Shown: in pieces, positions 5,598-25,560 of the stretch | Layout of the letters: every line of letters begins with the position of its first letter | Numbering within the stretch: position 1 is the first letter of the stretch | From: a virus | Virus record (IMG/VR): IMGVR_UViG_3300023109_000007 | Span: 73,747-137,746 of that record | DNA: 64,000 bases | Strand: one strand, 5' to 3' | Position numbers and translations under genes: made by a program | Notes under the pieces: model-generated | Database searches by the model: none | Told to the model about the DNA's origin: nothing | The model's input: only the letters and a program-made list of their open reading frames with translations

Positions 5598-6605
5598 TTG
5601 TTTAAGAAAGCAGCAGTTTTTACTGACATACACTTTGGCCTTAAAAGTAATAGCCGAACGCATAACTCAGACTGTGAAGAATTCATTGATTGGTTTATTG
5701 TTAATGCAAAAGAAAAAGGTTGCGAAACCTGCATTTTTTGCGGCGATTGGCATCACAACAGAAATTCACTTAATCTTACTACTATGGATGCAACAATTCG
5801 TAGTATGGAAAAGTTAGGCAAAGCATTTGATAAAGTTTTGATGTTTGTAGGAAATCATGATTTATATTACAAAGACAAACGTGATGTAAGTTCTACTGAG
5901 TTTGCTAGGCATATACCTGGTATTACAGTAGTTGACAAGATACTAGTCGAAGATGACGTTGCTCTTGTTCCATGGTTAGTTGGTGATGAATGGAAAAAAG
6001 TAGGAAAAATTAAAGCCAAGTATTTGTTTGGTCATTTTGAACTACCTAGCTTCTATATGAATGCCATGGTGCAGATGCCTGATCACGGAGACTTAAAGGC
6101 TGAACATTTTGTTAATCAAGAATATGTGTTTTCAGGACACTTTCACAAACGTCAAAAGCAGGGTAAAGTACATTACTTAGGTAATGCATTTCCGCACAAC
6201 TATGCAGATGCATGGGACGATGATCGCGGAATGATGGTACTAGAACACGGGGGCGAACCCGAGTACATTAACTGGGAAGCCTGTCCAAAATACAGAACAA
6301 TAAAACTTTCTAAACTAATTGATGACACTGACAAACTTATTAAAGATAAGATGTATTTGCGTGTTACACTAGACTTACCAATTAGTTATGAAGAAGCTAA
6401 CTTTATTAAAGAAACTTATATTAGCAATTACGGTGTTCGTGAACTAACACTTATACCGCAAAAGCAGATGGAAGAAATTAGTACAGATTTAGATATTGCA
6501 CAATTTGAAAGTGTTGATCAAATTGTAGCAAGTGAAATAGCAGAACTAGATACTGCCAACTACAATAAGAACACTCTCTTACAAATATATAATGGTTTAG
6601 AATGA
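5598..6605 (+). CDS. gp47: Recombination endonuclease subunit, Mre11/SbcD-like (T4 gp47)
   Basis: Metallophosphoesterase motifs DIHFG, GD, GNHD, GHF, SGHFH; TTG start with upstream GGAG. Confidence 0.92.
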   Translation: MFKKAAVFTDIHFGLKSNSRTHNSDCEEFIDWFIVNAKEKGCETCIFCGDWHHNRNSLNLTTMDATIRSMEKLGKAFDKVLMFVGNHDLYYKDKRDVSSTEFARHIPGITVVDKILVEDDVALVPWLVGDEWKKVGKIKAKYLFGHFELPSFYMNAMVQMPDHGDLKAEHFVNQEYVFSGHFHKRQKQGKVHYLGNAFPHNYADAWDDDRGMMVLEHGGEPEYINWEACPKYRTIKLSKLIDDTDKLIKDKMYLRVTLDLPISYEEANFIKETYISNYGVRELTLIPQKQMEEISTDLDIAQFESVDQIVASEIAELDTANYNKNTLLQIYNGLE

Positions 6606-8374
6606 TACGAATTAAAGATTTAACAGTTAAAAACTTCATGAGTGTGGGCAATCAAACCCAGGCTGTAGATTTTAATCGAGAACAATTAACACTAGTACTT
6701 GGTGAAAATTTAGACCAAGGTGGTGATGATACTGGATCAAGAAACGGTACAGGCAAAACTACAATAATTAATGCACTAAGTTATGCATTATATGGTACTG
6801 CCTTAACTAATATTAAACGAAATAATCTTATAAACAAGACTAATTCTAAAGGTATGTTAGTTACACTTCATTTTGAAAAGAATGGTGTTGATTATAGAAT
6901 TGAACGAGGTAGATCACCTAACATTCTAAAGTTCTACATTAACGAACAAGAACAAGAAATGATTGACGAGTCGCAAGGTGATAGCCGAAAAACACAAGAG
7001 TCAATCCACGAATTGCTAGGTATGAGTCATGATATGTTTAAGCACATTGTTGCACTAAACACATACTCTGAGCCGTTCTTATCTATGAGAGCTAATGACC
7101 AACGTGCAATCATCGAACAGTTACTTGGTATTACTATACTAACTGAAAAAGCAGATAGACTTAAAGAAAGTGTTAAACAAACTAAAGATAGTATTACAAC
7201 TGAAACTTTAAAGATAGAAGCTATACAAACAGCTAACAGTAAGATTGAAGGGACAATTTCTAGTTTACAAAGAACACAGCGGGCGTGGCTTTCTAAGAAA
7301 TCACAAGACGTTGAAAAACTAACCTTAGGAATTGACGAATTAGAACATGTAAACATTGACATTGAACTAGAATCGCATGAAAAACTATCAAATTGGACTG
7401 ATCATAACAATGCTATTTTGGCTCTTAAAAAAGAACTTAGTACTTTGGAACCGGCACTACAACGTGCTGATAAGAGTGTAACAAAACTTGTTAAAGATGT
7501 CGCAGATTTAGAAGATGCTACGTGTTATACATGTGGACAAGAGCTACATGCAGACAAAAAAGCAGAAATTGCAGAACGTAAAGAAAAAGAATTAGATGAT
7601 GCAAAAGCATATGCACTAGAAATTACTACTAAAGTAAAAGACGTTATGCTTGCTTTGGATAAAATAGGTGACATTAATGGTAAGCCTACTACATTCTATG
7701 AAACTGCTAAAGAAGCATATGAGCATAGACAAAATGTTGATAGTTTAAGGACTGCACTTGTTTCAAAACAAAATGAAACTGATCCTTATCAAACGCAGAT
7801 TGACGAATTAAACAACAGTGCTATACAAGAAATCAATTGGGACGAAATTAACGTATTAACAGATTATAAAGAACATCAAGAATTTTTGTTAAAGTTACTA
7901 ACAAACAAAGATAGCTTTATTCGTAAGAAAATTATTGATCAAAATTTAGCATACTTAAATAATCGGTTGTCTTATTATTTAGACAAACTAGGATTGCCTC
8001 ATCAGGTTGTGTTTTTAAATGATTTAAATGTTGAAATTACACAATTAGGACAAGATTTAGACTTTGATAATTTATCAAGAGGAGAGCGTAATAGACTTAT
8101 ACTCGGCTTGTCGTTTGCATTTAGAGATGTTTGGGAGAGTTTATATCAAGGCGTAAACTTGTTGTTTATTGACGAACTTATTGACAGTGGTATGGATGCT
8201 GCCGGTGTTGAAAATTCATTAAGCATCTTAAAGAAAATGGGTAGAGAACGTGAAAAGAACATTTATCTTATTTCGCACAAAGACGAACTAATTGGTCGTG
8301 TTAATCATGTTCTAAAAGTTATCAAAGAAAATGGATTTACAAATTATGAAAATGATATTGAAGTTGTAGAATAA
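6602..8374 (+). CDS. gp46: Recombination ATPase, Rad50/SbcC-like (T4 gp46)
   Basis: KNFMSVG, Walker A NGTGKTT, zinc hook CYTCGQ, signature LSRGE, Walker B LLFIDE, ISH. Confidence 0.95.
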   Translation: MIRIKDLTVKNFMSVGNQTQAVDFNREQLTLVLGENLDQGGDDTGSRNGTGKTTIINALSYALYGTALTNIKRNNLINKTNSKGMLVTLHFEKNGVDYRIERGRSPNILKFYINEQEQEMIDESQGDSRKTQESIHELLGMSHDMFKHIVALNTYSEPFLSMRANDQRAIIEQLLGITILTEKADRLKESVKQTKDSITTETLKIEAIQTANSKIEGTISSLQRTQRAWLSKKSQDVEKLTLGIDELEHVNIDIELESHEKLSNWTDHNNAILALKKELSTLEPALQRADKSVTKLVKDVADLEDATCYTCGQELHADKKAEIAERKEKELDDAKAYALEITTKVKDVMLALDKIGDINGKPTTFYETAKEAYEHRQNVDSLRTALVSKQNETDPYQTQIDELNNSAIQEINWDEINVLTDYKEHQEFLLKLLTNKDSFIRKKIIDQNLAYLNNRLSYYLDKLGLPHQVVFLNDLNVEITQLGQDLDFDNLSRGERNRLILGLSFAFRDVWESLYQGVNLLFIDELIDSGMDAAGVENSLSILKKMGREREKNIYLISHKDELIGRVNHVLKVIKENGFTNYENDIEVVE

Positions 8375-8565
8375 TGGATGATACACAAGATAAATTAGCT
8401 CAAGCATATTTAGAATACTTTCGAGCAAACGAGCTGTTTGAAACACGGAATAGTGTACGTACACACAGGTATGTAAGAAAATGTTTAAGAGATATTAGAT
8501 CACTTGCAAAAGACAGAATGGAAGAAATACACGTAAAGTATTTGGATAAGAAAAATAATGTTTAA
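8374..8565 (+). CDS. Small hypothetical protein
   Basis: Translationally coupled to gp46 (TAATG) and overlaps the next gene's start. Confidence 0.65.
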   Translation: MDDTQDKLAQAYLEYFRANELFETRNSVRTHRYVRKCLRDIRSLAKDRMEEIHVKYLDKKNNV

Positions 8566-9277
8566 TATTTGGAAAAAGAAAGAAAAATTACACATAGATT
8601 GCTTTACTAATTTTGGTGGTATTACTAAACTTTTTCCAATAGAATCTAGTTCTGCTTTCATGCCTGAATGGTTTAAAAAGTTGCCTACAACAGCACAAAC
8701 TGATACTGGCGGTAATGTAGGAACTGTAAAATTATGTCCTGGAATAACTGATACATTAAAGGCCGGTATTGTTATTCCTGTTTGGTGTGATATGTTTGTA
8801 GATCATGCAAACGGAGTTGTTAAAACTGAGCCAGAAGAAATGGCAGACGGACATCCAAGTTGGCAATGGGGGAATCATTCATTGTTTAAAGGTTATCATC
8901 ATTTAAAGATTTCATCACCTTGGCGATTTAGAGAAAAAACAGGTGCAAAATTTATGATGACTAATTCTTTTTGGAATGATCCTCAAACTAATTATTTTGT
9001 TCCAAATGGTATTTTAGATTTCAAATATCAAACTACAACTAATATTAATATTTGGATACCGAAAAATAAATTTGGAGGTAGCGGAAAATTTTTACTCGAA
9101 GCAGGAAATCCGCTAGTACAAATAATTCCATTAGAGGATAAAGAAATTGTAATTCATATGCAAGAAGTTGGTGATGATGTATTTTACGGAGACGAATTAG
9201 ATTATATCTTTACACAAAAAGGCATGTATTATAAGAGAAAAAACATTTTGTCCAAACGAGAAGGCAAAAAGACTTAG
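8558..9277 (+). CDS. Hypothetical protein, paralogue of the three proteins at 58042-60079
   Basis: Shares PEWFKKL, TVKLCPG, HLKISSPWRFREKTG, GILDFKYQTTTNIN, AGNPL with 58042..58737. Confidence 0.8.
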   Translation: MFNIWKKKEKLHIDCFTNFGGITKLFPIESSSAFMPEWFKKLPTTAQTDTGGNVGTVKLCPGITDTLKAGIVIPVWCDMFVDHANGVVKTEPEEMADGHPSWQWGNHSLFKGYHHLKISSPWRFREKTGAKFMMTNSFWNDPQTNYFVPNGILDFKYQTTTNINIWIPKNKFGGSGKFLLEAGNPLVQIIPLEDKEIVIHMQEVGDDVFYGDELDYIFTQKGMYYKRKNILSKREGKKT

Positions 9278-9294
9278 GCACACATATATACTGG

Positions 9295-9744
9295 ATGCAG
9301 TGGACATTTGAAGGTAAAATAATAGACGAAATACCAGAAGAGTACGAAGGCTTTGTTTATCTTATTACAAATATCACTACAGGACAAAAATACATAGGCA
9401 AGAAACTAGCAAAATTTAAAACTACTAAGCCACCGCTTAAAGGCAGAAAAAATAAACGACGAGGCTATAAAGAAAGCGACTGGAGAACATACTACGGTAG
9501 TTCAGACAGACTAAACGCAGACGTAGCATCAATAGGCTCAGATAAGTTTACAAGAGAAATATTATACCTATGTAAAGGTAGGGGCGAAATGTCCTACATA
9601 GAGGCAAGAGAACAGTTTGATAGGCGAGTACTTGAAACTGATGATTACTATAACGGTATCATCAATGTTAGAGTAGGCGGTTCAGACAAACTCAAACAGG
9701 CATTGCTAGAACAAAACATCAAGGCAAAACAATCTAACACATAA
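9295..9744 (+). CDS. GIY-YIG nuclease (stand-alone catalytic domain, endonuclease II/Seg-like)
   Basis: GFVYLITNITTGQKYIGKK motif, YYGSS, conserved E (YIEAREQ) and YYN. Confidence 0.85.
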   Translation: MQWTFEGKIIDEIPEEYEGFVYLITNITTGQKYIGKKLAKFKTTKPPLKGRKNKRRGYKESDWRTYYGSSDRLNADVASIGSDKFTREILYLCKGRGEMSYIEAREQFDRRVLETDDYYNGIINVRVGGSDKLKQALLEQNIKAKQSNT

Positions 9745-10120
9745 GGTTGGCGGGCCAGATTAATTTACCGCTGTGGAAAAAGCTCTCGTATAGAAGCACA
9801 CGTAACACGTTGAGTCGCGTCTGGTAATAAGGCGTTGGATTGACGTAGATTGAATGTTAGCAATTGAAAAACACAACACAGTACATAAAAACCCTTTAGC
9901 ACTAGGAACGAAGCGAGGGAATAGTGTTACATATAATGTACATTGTATATTATAAGCAACATAATGTCGACGTAGGTTGGGAAAGGTCAGAGCCCATTGT
10001 ACTTTGTGTATAAACAATTACCTACTTCCAATGTCTTGGCTGGTGCAGACTCACATGAAGCGCATTTTGAGATTAGATGGGACCGTAACAGGTTCCGTCT
10101 GACTGAAACAATCTACATGA
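9745..10120 (+). ncRNA. Putative large structured ncRNA downstream of the GIY-YIG gene
   Basis: No credible ORF; several stems with G-U pairs (e.g. 10073-10084/10091-10102) and crossing long-range pairings 9811-9816/10048-10053 and 9845-9852/10109-10116. Confidence 0.55.
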
Positions 10121-10128
10121 AACTTAAA

Positions 10129-10238
10129 CATTATTACATTCGTAATAATGCATTTGTATCATATTCATTACTTCTATCAACAAACGAAGTATGTAGTTTG
10201 AGCGTTAAGCGAAAACAAATATCTACGAAGTAGATATT
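10129..10238. repeat. Cluster of perfect inverted repeats
   Basis: CATTATTAC-attc-GTAATAATG (10129-10150), TACTTC..GAAGTA (10169-10191), AATATCTAC-gaa-GTAGATATT (10218-10238). Confidence 0.75.
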
Positions 10239-10250
10239 GAAACTATATAA

Positions 10251-10258
10251 TATAAATA
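10251..10258 (+). promoter_or_regulatory. T4-type late promoter TATAAATA
   Basis: Exact gp55 consensus 26 nt upstream of the 10284 ATG. Confidence 0.8.
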
Positions 10259-10283: not shown

Positions 10284-10826
10284 ATGAAAATTGATGAAAT
10301 TGAAAAACTTGATGAAGTGCCTGCAGGTATGCTAGGACAAGCTGGTAAAAAGCTTGGAGCAAAAGTATTAAACAAAATACCAGGTGGTGCTGCTAAATCA
10401 AAAGCTGCTAATATGGCTGCACAAGCTGACTTGGGAGATACTGCAAATAATTTACATAAAGAATTTAATGCTCACCTTGGGTCTAAACAACTAACAATGG
10501 CACAAGCAACTGGAGAAGAATTAGTTGCTTTTCTAAAAACAAAGAATCACAAGACTGCTGCTAGAATACCTTCTGGTGTATTACAAAAACAGCAACTTGA
10601 TGCAGTACTAATGGCAGTTGCAAAAGAAGCAACGGCAGCACAAGCTGCTGCTCCGGCTGCAAATGCACCAGTAGATGCTAACAAAGATGGTATAGATGAC
10701 AATACAGGAAAGCCAATCAAAGCTGCTCCTGCGGCTGGTGCAAAACCTAAAATACCAGCAGACATTATGGCACAACTACAAAAACTTAGTCTTGAGCAAA
10801 AACAACAGTTGGCAGAGCTACTATGA
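10284..10826 (+). CDS. Hypothetical late protein, possible internal head protein
   Basis: Late promoter and AAGGA SD; Ala/Lys-rich; N-terminal I/L-x-E motifs (KIDE, KLDE). Confidence 0.7.
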   Translation: MKIDEIEKLDEVPAGMLGQAGKKLGAKVLNKIPGGAAKSKAANMAAQADLGDTANNLHKEFNAHLGSKQLTMAQATGEELVAFLKTKNHKTAARIPSGVLQKQQLDAVLMAVAKEATAAQAAAPAANAPVDANKDGIDDNTGKPIKAAPAAGAKPKIPADIMAQLQKLSLEQKQQLAELL

Positions 10827-12400: not shown

Positions 12401-12613
12401 TTAAAAATAAGGTAAACCAGACTTTTTAGTAACTTCTATGTTCTCTTTTACTATAGAAGCAATAATTTCTCTGTCTTCATAACACAAACCAAACACTTCG
12501 TCAGTTGTAACTCCGCCACGCATTGCCCAAGCCATTTTAAATAGTTCTGATTTGAGGGCTTTTTGTTCATTTTCTAACGTTTTGGCTTCTTCTAGGATCT
12601 CGTCAAGCCCCAT
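12401..12613 (-). CDS. Small baseplate-hub assembly/tail chaperone (gp51-like); possible -1 frameshift extension of the upstream gene
   Basis: Follows the gp26-like gene; its frame is open back to the T TTT TTC slippery site; also has its own AAGGA SD. Confidence 0.6.
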   Translation of the reverse strand: MGLDEILEEAKTLENEQKALKSELFKMAWAMRGGVTTDEVFGLCYEDREIIASIVKENIEVTKKSGLPYF

Positions 12614-12624
12614 TGACAGGATCC

Positions 12625-13488
12625 TTATGCGAAAAAATTTGATTGATCGAATGTTATAGGTATTTCAAAAGTTTCAGGTGCACCTTCTTCAATTTCTTCT
12701 AAAGTACTTTCAACTTTCATTGGTTCAATATTAAATTTTACTTTTTGTGTTTCCAAATGATCTAAAATATCATTAAAGAACTCTTTATCTGCATTGTCAA
12801 TAAATTCTTGTATATGTAAGGGGTTATCTACAACTTGATCTTCAACTTCAATACTCTTAATACTTGTTGCTAACATGTTTACAGTCATTTGTGTGAGTTT
12901 TGCAAATGCTACATTAAACTTTTCAATCTTATCTTCATCTGGTATGTCATCATCATTAACAATTCTAAAGATTCTTTGCTCTTCAAACGTTTTCATAGCA
13001 TTACGTGTGAATTCTTTATAAGTTAACGGTGCTAAATTTACTACCATATCGCCAACTTGAATACGATCATCAAAATGAGTGTTGGTTATCTTATTCAACA
13101 TCTGTCTAAGATCCATATTATAATCACGTTCGCTTGTTGTATTAGGCGTAGTGTACGAAATCTGCATATGTTCACCGTATGTAGCAATACGTATAGCAAT
13201 TAATATAGCATCTAAGTCTACACTAGGCATTCCCCAAGCGTTTTTTATATTTGGAATACAACTTTGTATTACATCAACTGTACTTTGTCCGTTTAATAAC
13301 GCATCTGGTGTTTTCATAGCTAATTCATCTTTAGCTGTCATAGCAAATACTGGCAATTCTCCAGTTTCGGTCATTTCAATTGCACCGTCTGGGTAGTATT
13401 TTCCTCTACTTGGTAAATCTAAATAAACTTTAGGCTGTCGATAGAACTTCTTTAAAGGGTTTGCACCGGGTGCAGTAATTTCTGGCAT
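12625..13488 (-). CDS. Baseplate hub assembly protein, T4 gp26-like
   Basis: PKVYLDLPS.G, MTAKDEL, DLDAILIAIRIATYGE motifs; divergent from the tape measure gene. Confidence 0.75.
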   Translation of the reverse strand: MPEITAPGANPLKKFYRQPKVYLDLPSRGKYYPDGAIEMTETGELPVFAMTAKDELAMKTPDALLNGQSTVDVIQSCIPNIKNAWGMPSVDLDAILIAIRIATYGEHMQISYTTPNTTSERDYNMDLRQMLNKITNTHFDDRIQVGDMVVNLAPLTYKEFTRNAMKTFEEQRIFRIVNDDDIPDEDKIEKFNVAFAKLTQMTVNMLATSIKSIEVEDQVVDNPLHIQEFIDNADKEFFNDILDHLETQKVKFNIEPMKVESTLEEIEEGAPETFEIPITFDQSNFFA

Positions 13489-25051: not shown

Positions 25052-25155
25052 GATAAATACTATTGTCAAATAGTGTGCCGCAAGGCGGACTTATGCTGTA
25101 CCCACAGCGTAGCTCATAGAACGGGCATAGGACTACTTTTTATAGGAGAAAAAAA
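25052..25155 (+). promoter_or_regulatory. Late promoter variant (GATAAATA) and structured 5' leader
   Basis: GATAAATA at 25052-25059, then three hairpins (CCGC-aag-GCGG; TATGCTGT-accc-ACAGCGTA; GCTC..GGGC) before the AGGAG SD. Confidence 0.55.
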
Positions 25156-25560
25156 ATGGGAAGACCAATTAATAAAAGATTTTTCGGAGAGCCAACAGCA
25201 GCTGGTTCTGAAATCAAAGTACGTTTTCGTGCTACAGGACAAGCAGAAGCAAACGGCTGGATTGTAAAGCAATTAGGATCTAAGAAGTTCCGTTGCTACG
25301 ATGGTACTAACACAATGGATTGTACAATCGTTGACAAATCACAAGGTACGTTAGCAGTAGGCGAAATGACGATTACAGTTAAAGACGATGGCGGCACAGC
25401 ACGTCAAGTAACTAAAATTGCAGGACGCAAAGTAACACTTGACTCAGGCGCAAGTATTGCTTGGAACTTCAGTAATGCTACAGATGATGCAGCAGTTGAA
25501 ATGGAAGAAGCTGGTACAGCTGATGACTTCACTGGCGCAGACGATTTCGAAGCTGACTAA
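25156..25560 (+). CDS. Hypothetical late (virion?) protein
   Basis: Strong SD and late promoter; beta-rich with an acidic tail; followed by a hairpin at 25569-25589. Confidence 0.75.
   Translation: MGRPINKRFFGEPTAAGSEIKVRFRATGQAEANGWIVKQLGSKKFRCYDGTNTMDCTIVDKSQGTLAVGEMTITVKDDGGTARQVTKIAGRKVTLDSGASIAWNFSNATDDAAVEMEEAGTADDFTGADDFEAD

What the first reader, a model, noticed from the sequence alone, without database searches (positions are those of the whole stretch)
9295..10120. GIY-YIG nuclease followed immediately by a roughly 370-nt multi-pseudoknot RNA candidate
Seen: about 540 bp with no credible ORF in an otherwise tightly packed genome, beginning at the nuclease stop codon and GC-richer than the short spacers. 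Stems: GGCGG/CCGCT (9749-9772), whose loop GCCAG is complementary to TTGGC at 10036-10040; GCGTCT/AGGCGT (9817-9835); CCCTT/GAGGG (9892-9919); a 10-bp hairpin at 9932-9954; GTAGGT/ACCTAC (9972-10025) enclosing two sub-hairpins; a 12-bp stem with three G-U pairs (10073-10102). Two long-range helices cross: TGAGTC/GACTCA (9811/10048) and GTAGATTG/CAATCTAC (9845/10109). G-U pairs on the + strand favour an RNA-level structure co-transcribed with the nuclease. The 149-aa protein is a bare catalytic domain with a basic insert (KPPLKGRKNKRRGYK) and no evident DNA-recognition domain. Inference: a possible nuclease-ncRNA ribonucleoprotein (by analogy to HEARO/OMEGA pairs) or a new large ribozyme class. 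I do not recognise a known family.
Basis: partly seen in the sequence, partly recalled or inferred. Interest (0 to 1): 0.85.

Follow-up and report, generated by a model that had tools for sequence, protein, structure and literature searches.

The report
Uncatalogued twin-box RNA of marine phages
The gene-free stretch behind a small DNA-cutting enzyme gene of this uncultured marine phage encodes a real, knotted RNA of about 400 bases from a family that no RNA catalogue holds, and it looks like an RNA gene of its own, not the enzyme's guide.

Summary
Window 9745-10121 (+ strand) is a conserved, structured, non-coding RNA. On 93 distinct relatives, 64 modelled pairs are 98.1% standard pairs, 32 pairs show changes on both sides, and 0 of 500 shuffles reach this. 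One real pseudoknot exists (9871-9885/9998-10009 crossing 9972-9977/10020-10025). No Rfam family matches.

The RNA carries the word ACATGAA twice (10053, 10115). In 204 of 210 distinct cores both copies are identical, across 11 variant words.

The nuclease is an ordinary SegE-type GIY-YIG domain. Linkage is strong but not obligatory. Six loci from five contigs, L130, L173 (the same contig as L211), L222, L268, L273 and L304, carry the RNA with no nuclease gene found upstream. In 4 of 4 isolate phages, nuclease homologues have no such RNA.

Best reading: an independent phage RNA gene with a parked homing-type nuclease beside it. Its function is unproven; it may read an outside nucleic acid through the twin boxes.

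This scan had already found the same family on other genomes.

The parts
9295..9744 (+). 149-aa SegE-type GIY-YIG nuclease gene. Its last codons overlap the leader of the RNA element.
   Evidence: Pfam PF19835, E 1e-35, profile 1-123/123. Intact at 148-151 aa in 80 of 80 related loci.
9727..9744 (+). Leader of the RNA element. It is conserved at nucleotide level even where no nuclease gene precedes it.
   Evidence: Homology of L173/L211 to the window begins 18 nt before GGTTGG. The same leader is seen in L304 and L243.
9745..9865 (+). Variable 5' domain. P1 9749-9753/9768-9772; P2 9773-9775/9799-9801; P2a 9782-9784/9795-9797; P3 9807-9815/9838-9846, closing a swappable module 9816-9837; P4 9848-9852/9861-9865.
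   Evidence: Helices 1-5. The module comes in several alternative versions. The whole domain is replaced by unrelated sequence in L203/L204 and L268/L273.
9871..10025 (+). Conserved core with a pseudoknot. P5 9871-9874/10006-10009 plus 9881-9885/9998-10002; P6 9892-9900/9913-9919 (loop GGAACGAAGC); P7 9921-9927/9959-9965 (variable length, GNRA-capped in the short forms); P8 9972-9977/10020-10025, which crosses P5; P9 9978-9981/9993-9996.
   Evidence: Helices 6-12. P5 is fully compensated in L203, L130 and L268.
10053..10059 (+). Twin box 1 (ACATGAA), unpaired, 5' of P10.
10076..10099 (+). P10 hairpin (9 pairs, with frequent G-U).
   Evidence: Helix 13. 15% G.T pairs.
10115..10121 (+). Twin box 2 (ACATGAA), 3' of P10.
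   Evidence: 204 of 210 distinct cores have identical 7-mers in both boxes.
10129..10150 (+). A+U-rich 9-bp hairpin followed by a U-rich run. Probable 3' end or terminator of the RNA (inferred).
   Evidence: The stem covaries among relatives (alignment). The terminator scan did not call it because it has too few G-C pairs.
10196..10237 (.). Conserved AGCG..AGCG repeat (10196-10216), then a perfect palindromic hairpin (10219-10237). Both travel with the RNA into other gene contexts.
   Evidence: present in all eight contexts printed. (162 distinct stems, 1% G.T).
10251..10258 (+). T4-type late promoter word TATAAATA, 26 nt before the start codon at 10284.
   Evidence: The word itself is not enriched in the window: 6 found against 8.9 expected.

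Best explanation
Window ~9727-10150 (+ strand) encodes a member of an uncatalogued family of 380-440-nt structured RNAs. The family is carried by uncultured marine myophages with T4-type replication and late-promoter features.

The RNA has a swappable 5' domain (P1-P4) and a strongly conserved 3' core (P5-P10). The core is held by a P5/P8 pseudoknot. One 7-nt word is displayed twice, unpaired, on either side of hairpin P10.

The RNA is most likely transcribed as the tail of the early/middle gp46-o63-nuclease unit and ends at the A+U hairpin near 10150 (inferred, not shown). It then acts as an RNA in its own right. The two boxes change in step but have no complement nearby. I therefore infer that they read the same outside nucleic-acid word, or two copies of one binding partner.

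The GIY-YIG gene beside it is a free-standing Seg-type nuclease gene that has become fixed next to this RNA gene in one large phage lineage. It is not an RNA-guided enzyme.
For: Structure:
- 64 pairs in 13 helices, 98.1% standard pairs, 32 pairs and 500 cells changed on both sides. 0 of 500 shuffles reach this. Slid controls give 34-43% paired.
- RNAalifold on its own finds 48 pairs, 23 of them compensated.
- Folding is strand-specific.

No known family. ARAGORN finds nothing.

Independence from the nuclease:
- 2 of 108 viral loci and 4 of 84 metagenome loci with enough upstream sequence have no nuclease gene there. All eight atypical metagenome loci score 98-143 bits with model R1; L130 scores 121.2 bits and L211 154 bits.
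- In L211 the RNA lies between an SGNH-like gene and an endolysin-like gene. 9 other loci with that SGNH-like gene lack the RNA.
- 0 of 4 isolate phages with nuclease homologues hold the RNA.

Twin boxes:
- 204 of 210 cores have identical boxes. 46 of 52 non-consensus cases changed alike. There are 11 variant words. 1000 shuffles give mean 123 and maximum 132.
- No complement in cis within -450..+500.

Presence in RNA libraries: contigs of 4 marine metatranscriptome runs from 4 studies cover the nuclease gene and parts of the RNA, some across the junction. This is weak evidence. They are contigs only, and DNA carry-over is not excluded.
Against: - No transcript ends, strand or level are shown. 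A promoter for the RNA was not found.
- Adjacency to the nuclease gene is very strong: 106 of 108 and 80 of 84 loci with enough upstream sequence (8 of the 80 have insertions between). The two sets are not deduplicated against each other. It persists down to 48% nuclease identity, which could reflect a shared function and not just synteny.
- The RNA leader overlaps the nuclease ORF end.
- The partner of the boxes is unknown. A protein that binds twice, or concerted evolution, would give the same pattern.
- L222 has only about 640 nt upstream of the RNA's start, so its lack of the gene is less sure.
Confidence: 0.6

Rival explanations
1. Nuclease-RNA ribonucleoprotein. The bare GIY-YIG domain uses the RNA as scaffold or guide, and the twin boxes serve as a short guide.
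For: - Adjacency in 186 of 192 loci with enough upstream sequence.
- All 50 nuclease loci that reach far enough carry the RNA core.
- The protein has only 26 residues beyond the catalytic domain.
- The boxes vary in step like a specificity element.
Against: - The RNA occurs with no nuclease gene found upstream in 6 loci.
- Equally short homologues work without the RNA in 4 of 4 isolate phages.
- 7 nt is very short for a guide.
- The box word is not specially avoided in the phage's own genome: rank 419 of 4096, and 4 found against 6.1 expected from its sub-words.
Confidence: 0.1
2. Cis-acting 3' element of the early operon. It acts as a stabiliser or insulator that ends early transcripts before the late promoter, with no role in trans.
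For: - It sits at the early/late module boundary. It is followed by hairpins and a TATAAATA word 26 nt before the next start codon.
- The RNA together with the AGCG repeat and the palindromic hairpin recurs in all eight gene contexts printed; in L211 a TATAAATA word follows as well.
Against: About 250 nt of near-invariant unpaired sequence, a pseudoknot, GNRA-capped peripheral stems and twin boxes far exceed what a 3' stabiliser needs.
Confidence: 0.12
3. A ribozyme. Either a group-I-derived remnant that travelled with its homing nuclease gene, or a new self-processing RNA.
For: - The crossing P5/P8 helices have the same order of strands as P3/P7 of group I introns (recalled).
- The peripheral domains are swappable, the core is invariant, and GNRA loops are present.
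- A GIY-YIG gene lies beside it.
Against: - No Rfam intron or ribozyme match, even at E up to 10, in 8 members.
- No exons: the flanks are separate genes, and the 160 nt after the RNA are non-coding.
- A hairpin sits where group I has none, and P8 of group I has no counterpart.
Confidence: 0.1
4. Replication-origin or primer RNA. A folded transcript forms a hybrid in the A+T-rich stretch with repeats and a palindrome just downstream, as ColE1 RNA II does.
For: - An A+T-rich spacer, tandem AGCG words and a perfect palindrome (1% G.T in 162 versions) always follow the RNA.
Against: No direct evidence. GC skew shows nothing at this place. The twin boxes are unexplained by this reading.
Confidence: 0.05

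Closest known systems
GOLLD and ROOL RNAs (Rfam RF01998, RF03087; described in PMC5737381, of which I read passages)
   Same: Large, multi-helix, pseudoknotted non-coding RNAs often carried by phages. Function unknown. Conserved core with variable periphery.
   Different: No sequence or structure match in Rfam searches. It is shorter (about 400 nt against about 580 nt or more). It is not near tRNA genes (0 tRNAs in the window). It carries twin boxes that change in step.
Free-standing Seg-type GIY-YIG homing endonuclease genes of T4-like phages, such as SegB among the T4 tRNA genes (recalled, not from a call)
   Same: A small GIY-YIG gene parked in an intergenic place beside a conserved RNA gene. 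Pfam family SegE_GIY-YIG.
   Different: It is only 149 aa, without the C-terminal DNA-binding part that T4 Seg proteins have (recalled). It is intact and syntenic across deep divergence, 48-95% identity, which is unlike a sporadic selfish gene.
HEARO / omega RNA with IscB (Rfam RF02033)
   Same: A large structured RNA adjacent to a nuclease gene.
   Different: No Rfam match. The nuclease is GIY-YIG, not RuvC/HNH. Linkage is not obligatory. There is no long guide segment.
Group I intron with an I-TevI-type GIY-YIG gene
   Same: A GIY-YIG gene next to a pseudoknotted RNA core in a T4-like phage.
   Different: No exons, no Rfam match, and a different arrangement of helices inside the knot.

Membership tests
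SegE-type GIY-YIG nuclease (Pfam PF19835) | Profile match above the curated cut-off over the whole domain | tested here: met
   123.1 bits against a cut-off of 25; residues 3-123 on profile 1-123/123.
SegE-type GIY-YIG nuclease (Pfam PF19835) | C-terminal DNA-binding domain, as in full-length T4 Seg proteins (lengths recalled) | tested here: not met
   Only 26 residues follow the domain. Homologues of 135-146 aa in isolates are equally short.
Group I intron | Match to Rfam intron models | tested here: not met
   No hit at E up to 10 in the window or in 7 other members.
Group I intron | Flanking exons that join into one gene | tested here: not met
   Upstream and downstream are separate ORFs. 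The neighbours differ between contexts.
Group I intron | Guanosine-binding site and splice-site helices | not testable with these tools
   Needs biochemistry or a 3D model.
HEARO / omega guide RNA | Rfam match, and obligatory pairing with an IscB/TnpB-type nuclease | tested here: not met
   No Rfam hit. The RNA occurs with no nuclease gene found upstream in 6 loci. The nuclease is GIY-YIG.
HEARO / omega guide RNA | A variable guide segment next to a constant scaffold | tested here: inconclusive
   No long variable unpaired segment. Two 7-nt boxes vary in step.
GOLLD / ROOL | Covariance-model match | tested here: not met
tmRNA, RNase P RNA, tRNA-like | ARAGORN or Rfam detection | tested here: not met
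   0 genes by ARAGORN. No Rfam hit.

The most novel reading that the evidence does not exclude
The twin boxes are a small programmable reader. The folded core presents the same 7-nt word twice, so that the RNA base-pairs with two copies of an outside word. That target could be a host or phage RNA, or single-stranded DNA. The word is retuned as the target changes, with 11 versions seen. In the main lineage the neighbouring GIY-YIG nuclease could be the effector. This would be a new class of sequence-reading phage RNA, unrelated to CRISPR or OMEGA scaffolds.
Probability: 0.2. Interest if true: 0.9.

Novelty: new variant of a known kind. Interest (0 to 1): 0.72.

Why it matters
Large, intricately folded bacterial and phage RNAs are rare, and most known ones turned out to be ribozymes or unusual machines. 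This family is abundant. It is very well supported by covariation and absent from Rfam.

Its two boxes mutate in parallel instead of in complement. Ordinary RNA helices do not produce that signature. It points to recognition of an outside partner and gives a direct, testable handle on function.

It also corrects the attractive idea that a bare GIY-YIG domain is RNA-guided.

Tried and rejected
- Degraded C-terminal half of the nuclease gene or other pseudogene: rejected. No ORF is conserved in 50 loci, and substitutions follow helices.
- tmRNA or tRNA: none found.
- A local helix closing around box 1: not consistently predicted.
- A complement of the boxes in cis: no exact 7-mer within +-1500 nt at any consistent place. 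With wobble allowed, only one bin had hits, in 25 of 155 sequences and in 1 of 38 variants.
- Pairing of box 1 with box 2 through the CAUG palindrome: by my own reading of the variants, it fits CGUG and UAUG but fails for CAUA, CAGA and GAUG.
- Boxes as mimics of the downstream gene's start: no correlation with start contexts.
- Boxes as small-ORF starts: by my own reading of A2, the frame is not kept in L020.
- Self-avoidance of the box word in the phage genome: not beyond its sub-words. Its other occurrences in the genome show no pattern.
- RNA in cellular genomes: of 5 hits, 3 are phage contigs in MAGs with the same gene order and 2 are chance matches inside GC-rich coding sequence.
- Isolates: blastn of the 539-nt stretch against 50,697 phage records gave one spurious 45-nt hit.
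- Solved structures by sequence for the nuclease: none.
- Metatranscriptome contigs: parts without cover, and the lack of cover on the flanks, say nothing, because the flanks are variable and the holders were chosen by this stretch.
- Literature: four searches gave no paper describing this RNA. I saw listings only, apart from passages of PMC10690425 and PMC5737381. The supplementary tables of PMC10690425, which list over ten thousand candidate viral RNAs from IMG/VR, were closed and may contain this motif.

Full report
What is there. The window belongs to a 137.7-kb viral record that CheckV rates 36% complete. It has T4-type genes: a Rad50-like gp46 at 6602-8374. Its closest isolate relatives are only 49% identical, in PA5oct-like jumbo phages. 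ORF 9295-9744 is a complete SegE-type GIY-YIG domain (PF19835, E 1e-35, profile 1-123/123). From 9745 to the next start codon at 10284 there is no credible ORF. Composition is richer in G+C than the spacer after it. The + strand folds better than shuffles (z -2.76) and the - strand does not (z -0.46). Rfam holds no match at gathering scores or at E up to 10. ARAGORN finds no tRNA or tmRNA.

Relatives. A protein-based scan found 595 viral stretches encoding close relatives of the nuclease, and 80 loci were kept. In every one the DNA similarity runs on past the stop codon. All 50 loci with at least 420 nt downstream carry the RNA core. None of those 50 has a conserved ORF there. A DNA motif from the core found 119 further viral stretches, and a gapped pattern found 120 metagenome stretches.

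Structure. I aligned 93 distinct sequences, 66-89% identical to the window (A1). RNAalifold predicts 48 pairs, 23 with compensatory double changes. My 64-pair, 13-helix model is 98.1% standard pairs, with 32 pairs and 500 cells changed on both sides. No shuffle of 500 reaches any of the first three measures. Sliding the partners by 1-3 columns drops pairing to 34-43%. P5 (9871-9874/10006-10009 and 9881-9885/9998-10002) and P8 (9972-9977/10020-10025) cross, which gives a real pseudoknot. P5 has 7 of 9 pairs with double changes. P8 has U-A replaced by G-C in 4 sequences and by C-G in 2. In divergent members P5 is rewritten entirely: AUGCUAC/GUAGCAU in L203, GUGCA/UGCAC in L130, AUCUCC/GGAGAU in L268. 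The 5' domain (P1-P4) carries a module that exists in several alternative versions. The whole domain is replaced by unrelated sequence in L203/L204 and L268/L273. Many contigs break just there. The short forms of P7 end in GNRA loops.

Twin boxes. ACATGAA stands at 10053 and again at 10115, on either side of hairpin P10. I had noticed the repeat. Earlier notes of this scan on other genomes claimed that the copies always change together, so I tested it. Among 210 distinct cores from all loci, 204 have identical 7-mers in both boxes. Of 52 with a non-consensus box, 46 carry the same change in both. Eleven variant words occur. 1000 shuffles give a mean of 123 and a maximum of 132 identical pairs. 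This is parallel change, not complementary change. I found no complement in cis, no link to the start of the downstream gene and no special avoidance of the word in the phage genome. The CAUG palindrome cannot explain the pattern for all variants.

Link to the nuclease. Among loci found through the RNA, 106 of 108 viral loci with at least 700 nt upstream have the nuclease gene before the RNA, at 48-95% identity. The exceptions are L130 and L173. Among metagenome loci, 72 have it adjacent. Another 8 have it further upstream, with insertions between; in L243 the insertion is a second GIY-YIG-like ORF on the other strand. 36 are too short to tell. 4 have none: L222, L268, L273 and L304. All eight odd loci are true members by model R1, at 98-143 bits. 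L173 is the same contig as L211. There the RNA lies between an SGNH-hydrolase-like gene and an endolysin-like gene, and 9 other loci with relatives of that hydrolase lack the RNA. Homology to the window begins 18 nt before GGTTGG, inside the last codons of the nuclease ORF. So the element starts near 9727. Conversely, nuclease homologues of 135-146 aa in Melnitz, P-HM2, ACG-2014f and an Alteromonas podophage are followed directly by the next gene. None of these four complete records holds the RNA; the best hit is E 0.16. The 'bare domain' and the 'basic insert' are therefore ordinary features of a widespread family.

Surroundings. After box 2 comes a covarying A+U-rich hairpin (10129-10150) with a U-rich tail. 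It is probably the 3' end, though this is inferred; the consensus scan does not call it. Next come a conserved AGCG..AGCG repeat and a hairpin whose stem differs in 162 versions yet has only 1% G.T pairs, against 15% in P10. TATAAATA follows at 10251, 26 nt before the start codon at 10284. The repeat and the palindromic hairpin accompany the RNA in all eight gene contexts printed; in L211 a TATAAATA word follows them as well.

Expression. Contigs from four marine metatranscriptome runs of four studies cover the nuclease gene and parts of the RNA, some across the junction. They are contigs, so they show neither strand nor ends nor level, and DNA carry-over cannot be excluded. I count this as a weak hint only.

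Reading. Shown: a real, abundant, strongly structured + strand RNA family, absent from Rfam, with a pseudoknotted core and twin boxes, and separable from the nuclease gene. Inferred: it is an independent RNA gene at the end of an early transcription unit, and the boxes read an outside partner. The nuclease-guide reading is not excluded within the main lineage. It is disfavoured by the exceptions in both directions.

Novelty. I found no paper that describes it (passages read). The closed supplements of PMC10690425 may list it among unnamed candidates. The same family was met before by this scan on other genomes, with concordant verdicts.

Noticed in passing
window 10196-10237: A conserved AGCG..AGCG direct repeat followed by a perfect palindromic hairpin. 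The stem differs in 162 versions but almost never uses G.T pairs (1%, against 15% in P10). That suggests a signal read on DNA or on both strands. It travels with the RNA into other gene contexts.
   Followed up: partly
window 8558-9277: The 239-aa ORF between the small 63-aa ORF and the nuclease gene is absent from most related loci, where the nuclease gene follows the 63-aa ORF directly. It is a lineage-specific insertion with no Pfam match.
   Followed up: partly
L243 9235-9831 (oriented as): A second GIY-YIG-like ORF (198 aa) on the opposite strand is inserted between the usual nuclease gene and the RNA. The RNA leader is kept after it.
   Followed up: no
L268 and L273, about 150-300 nt before the core motif: Three to four copies of an AGGCAC-like word precede an alternative 5' domain of the RNA. 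A single AGGCAAA word also precedes the RNA in the window (about 9719), L304 and L243. It may be a promoter or binding element.
   Followed up: no
window 25074-25158: The only Rfam hit in the window is freshwater-2 RNA (68.4 bits, gathering score 49.9), ending at a ribosome-binding site and ATG.
   Followed up: no
window about 9804-9890, and the ends of many loci (L005, L008, L015, L027, L036 and others): Many viral contigs end 140-150 nt after the nuclease stop codon, at the swappable module of the RNA. This is probably an assembly break caused by alternative modules coexisting in one sample.
   Followed up: partly
window 12401-13488: Earlier notes of the scan propose a -1 frameshift joining a gp26-like ORF and a 70-aa ORF. 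I saw the two ORFs but did not test the slip.
   Followed up: no
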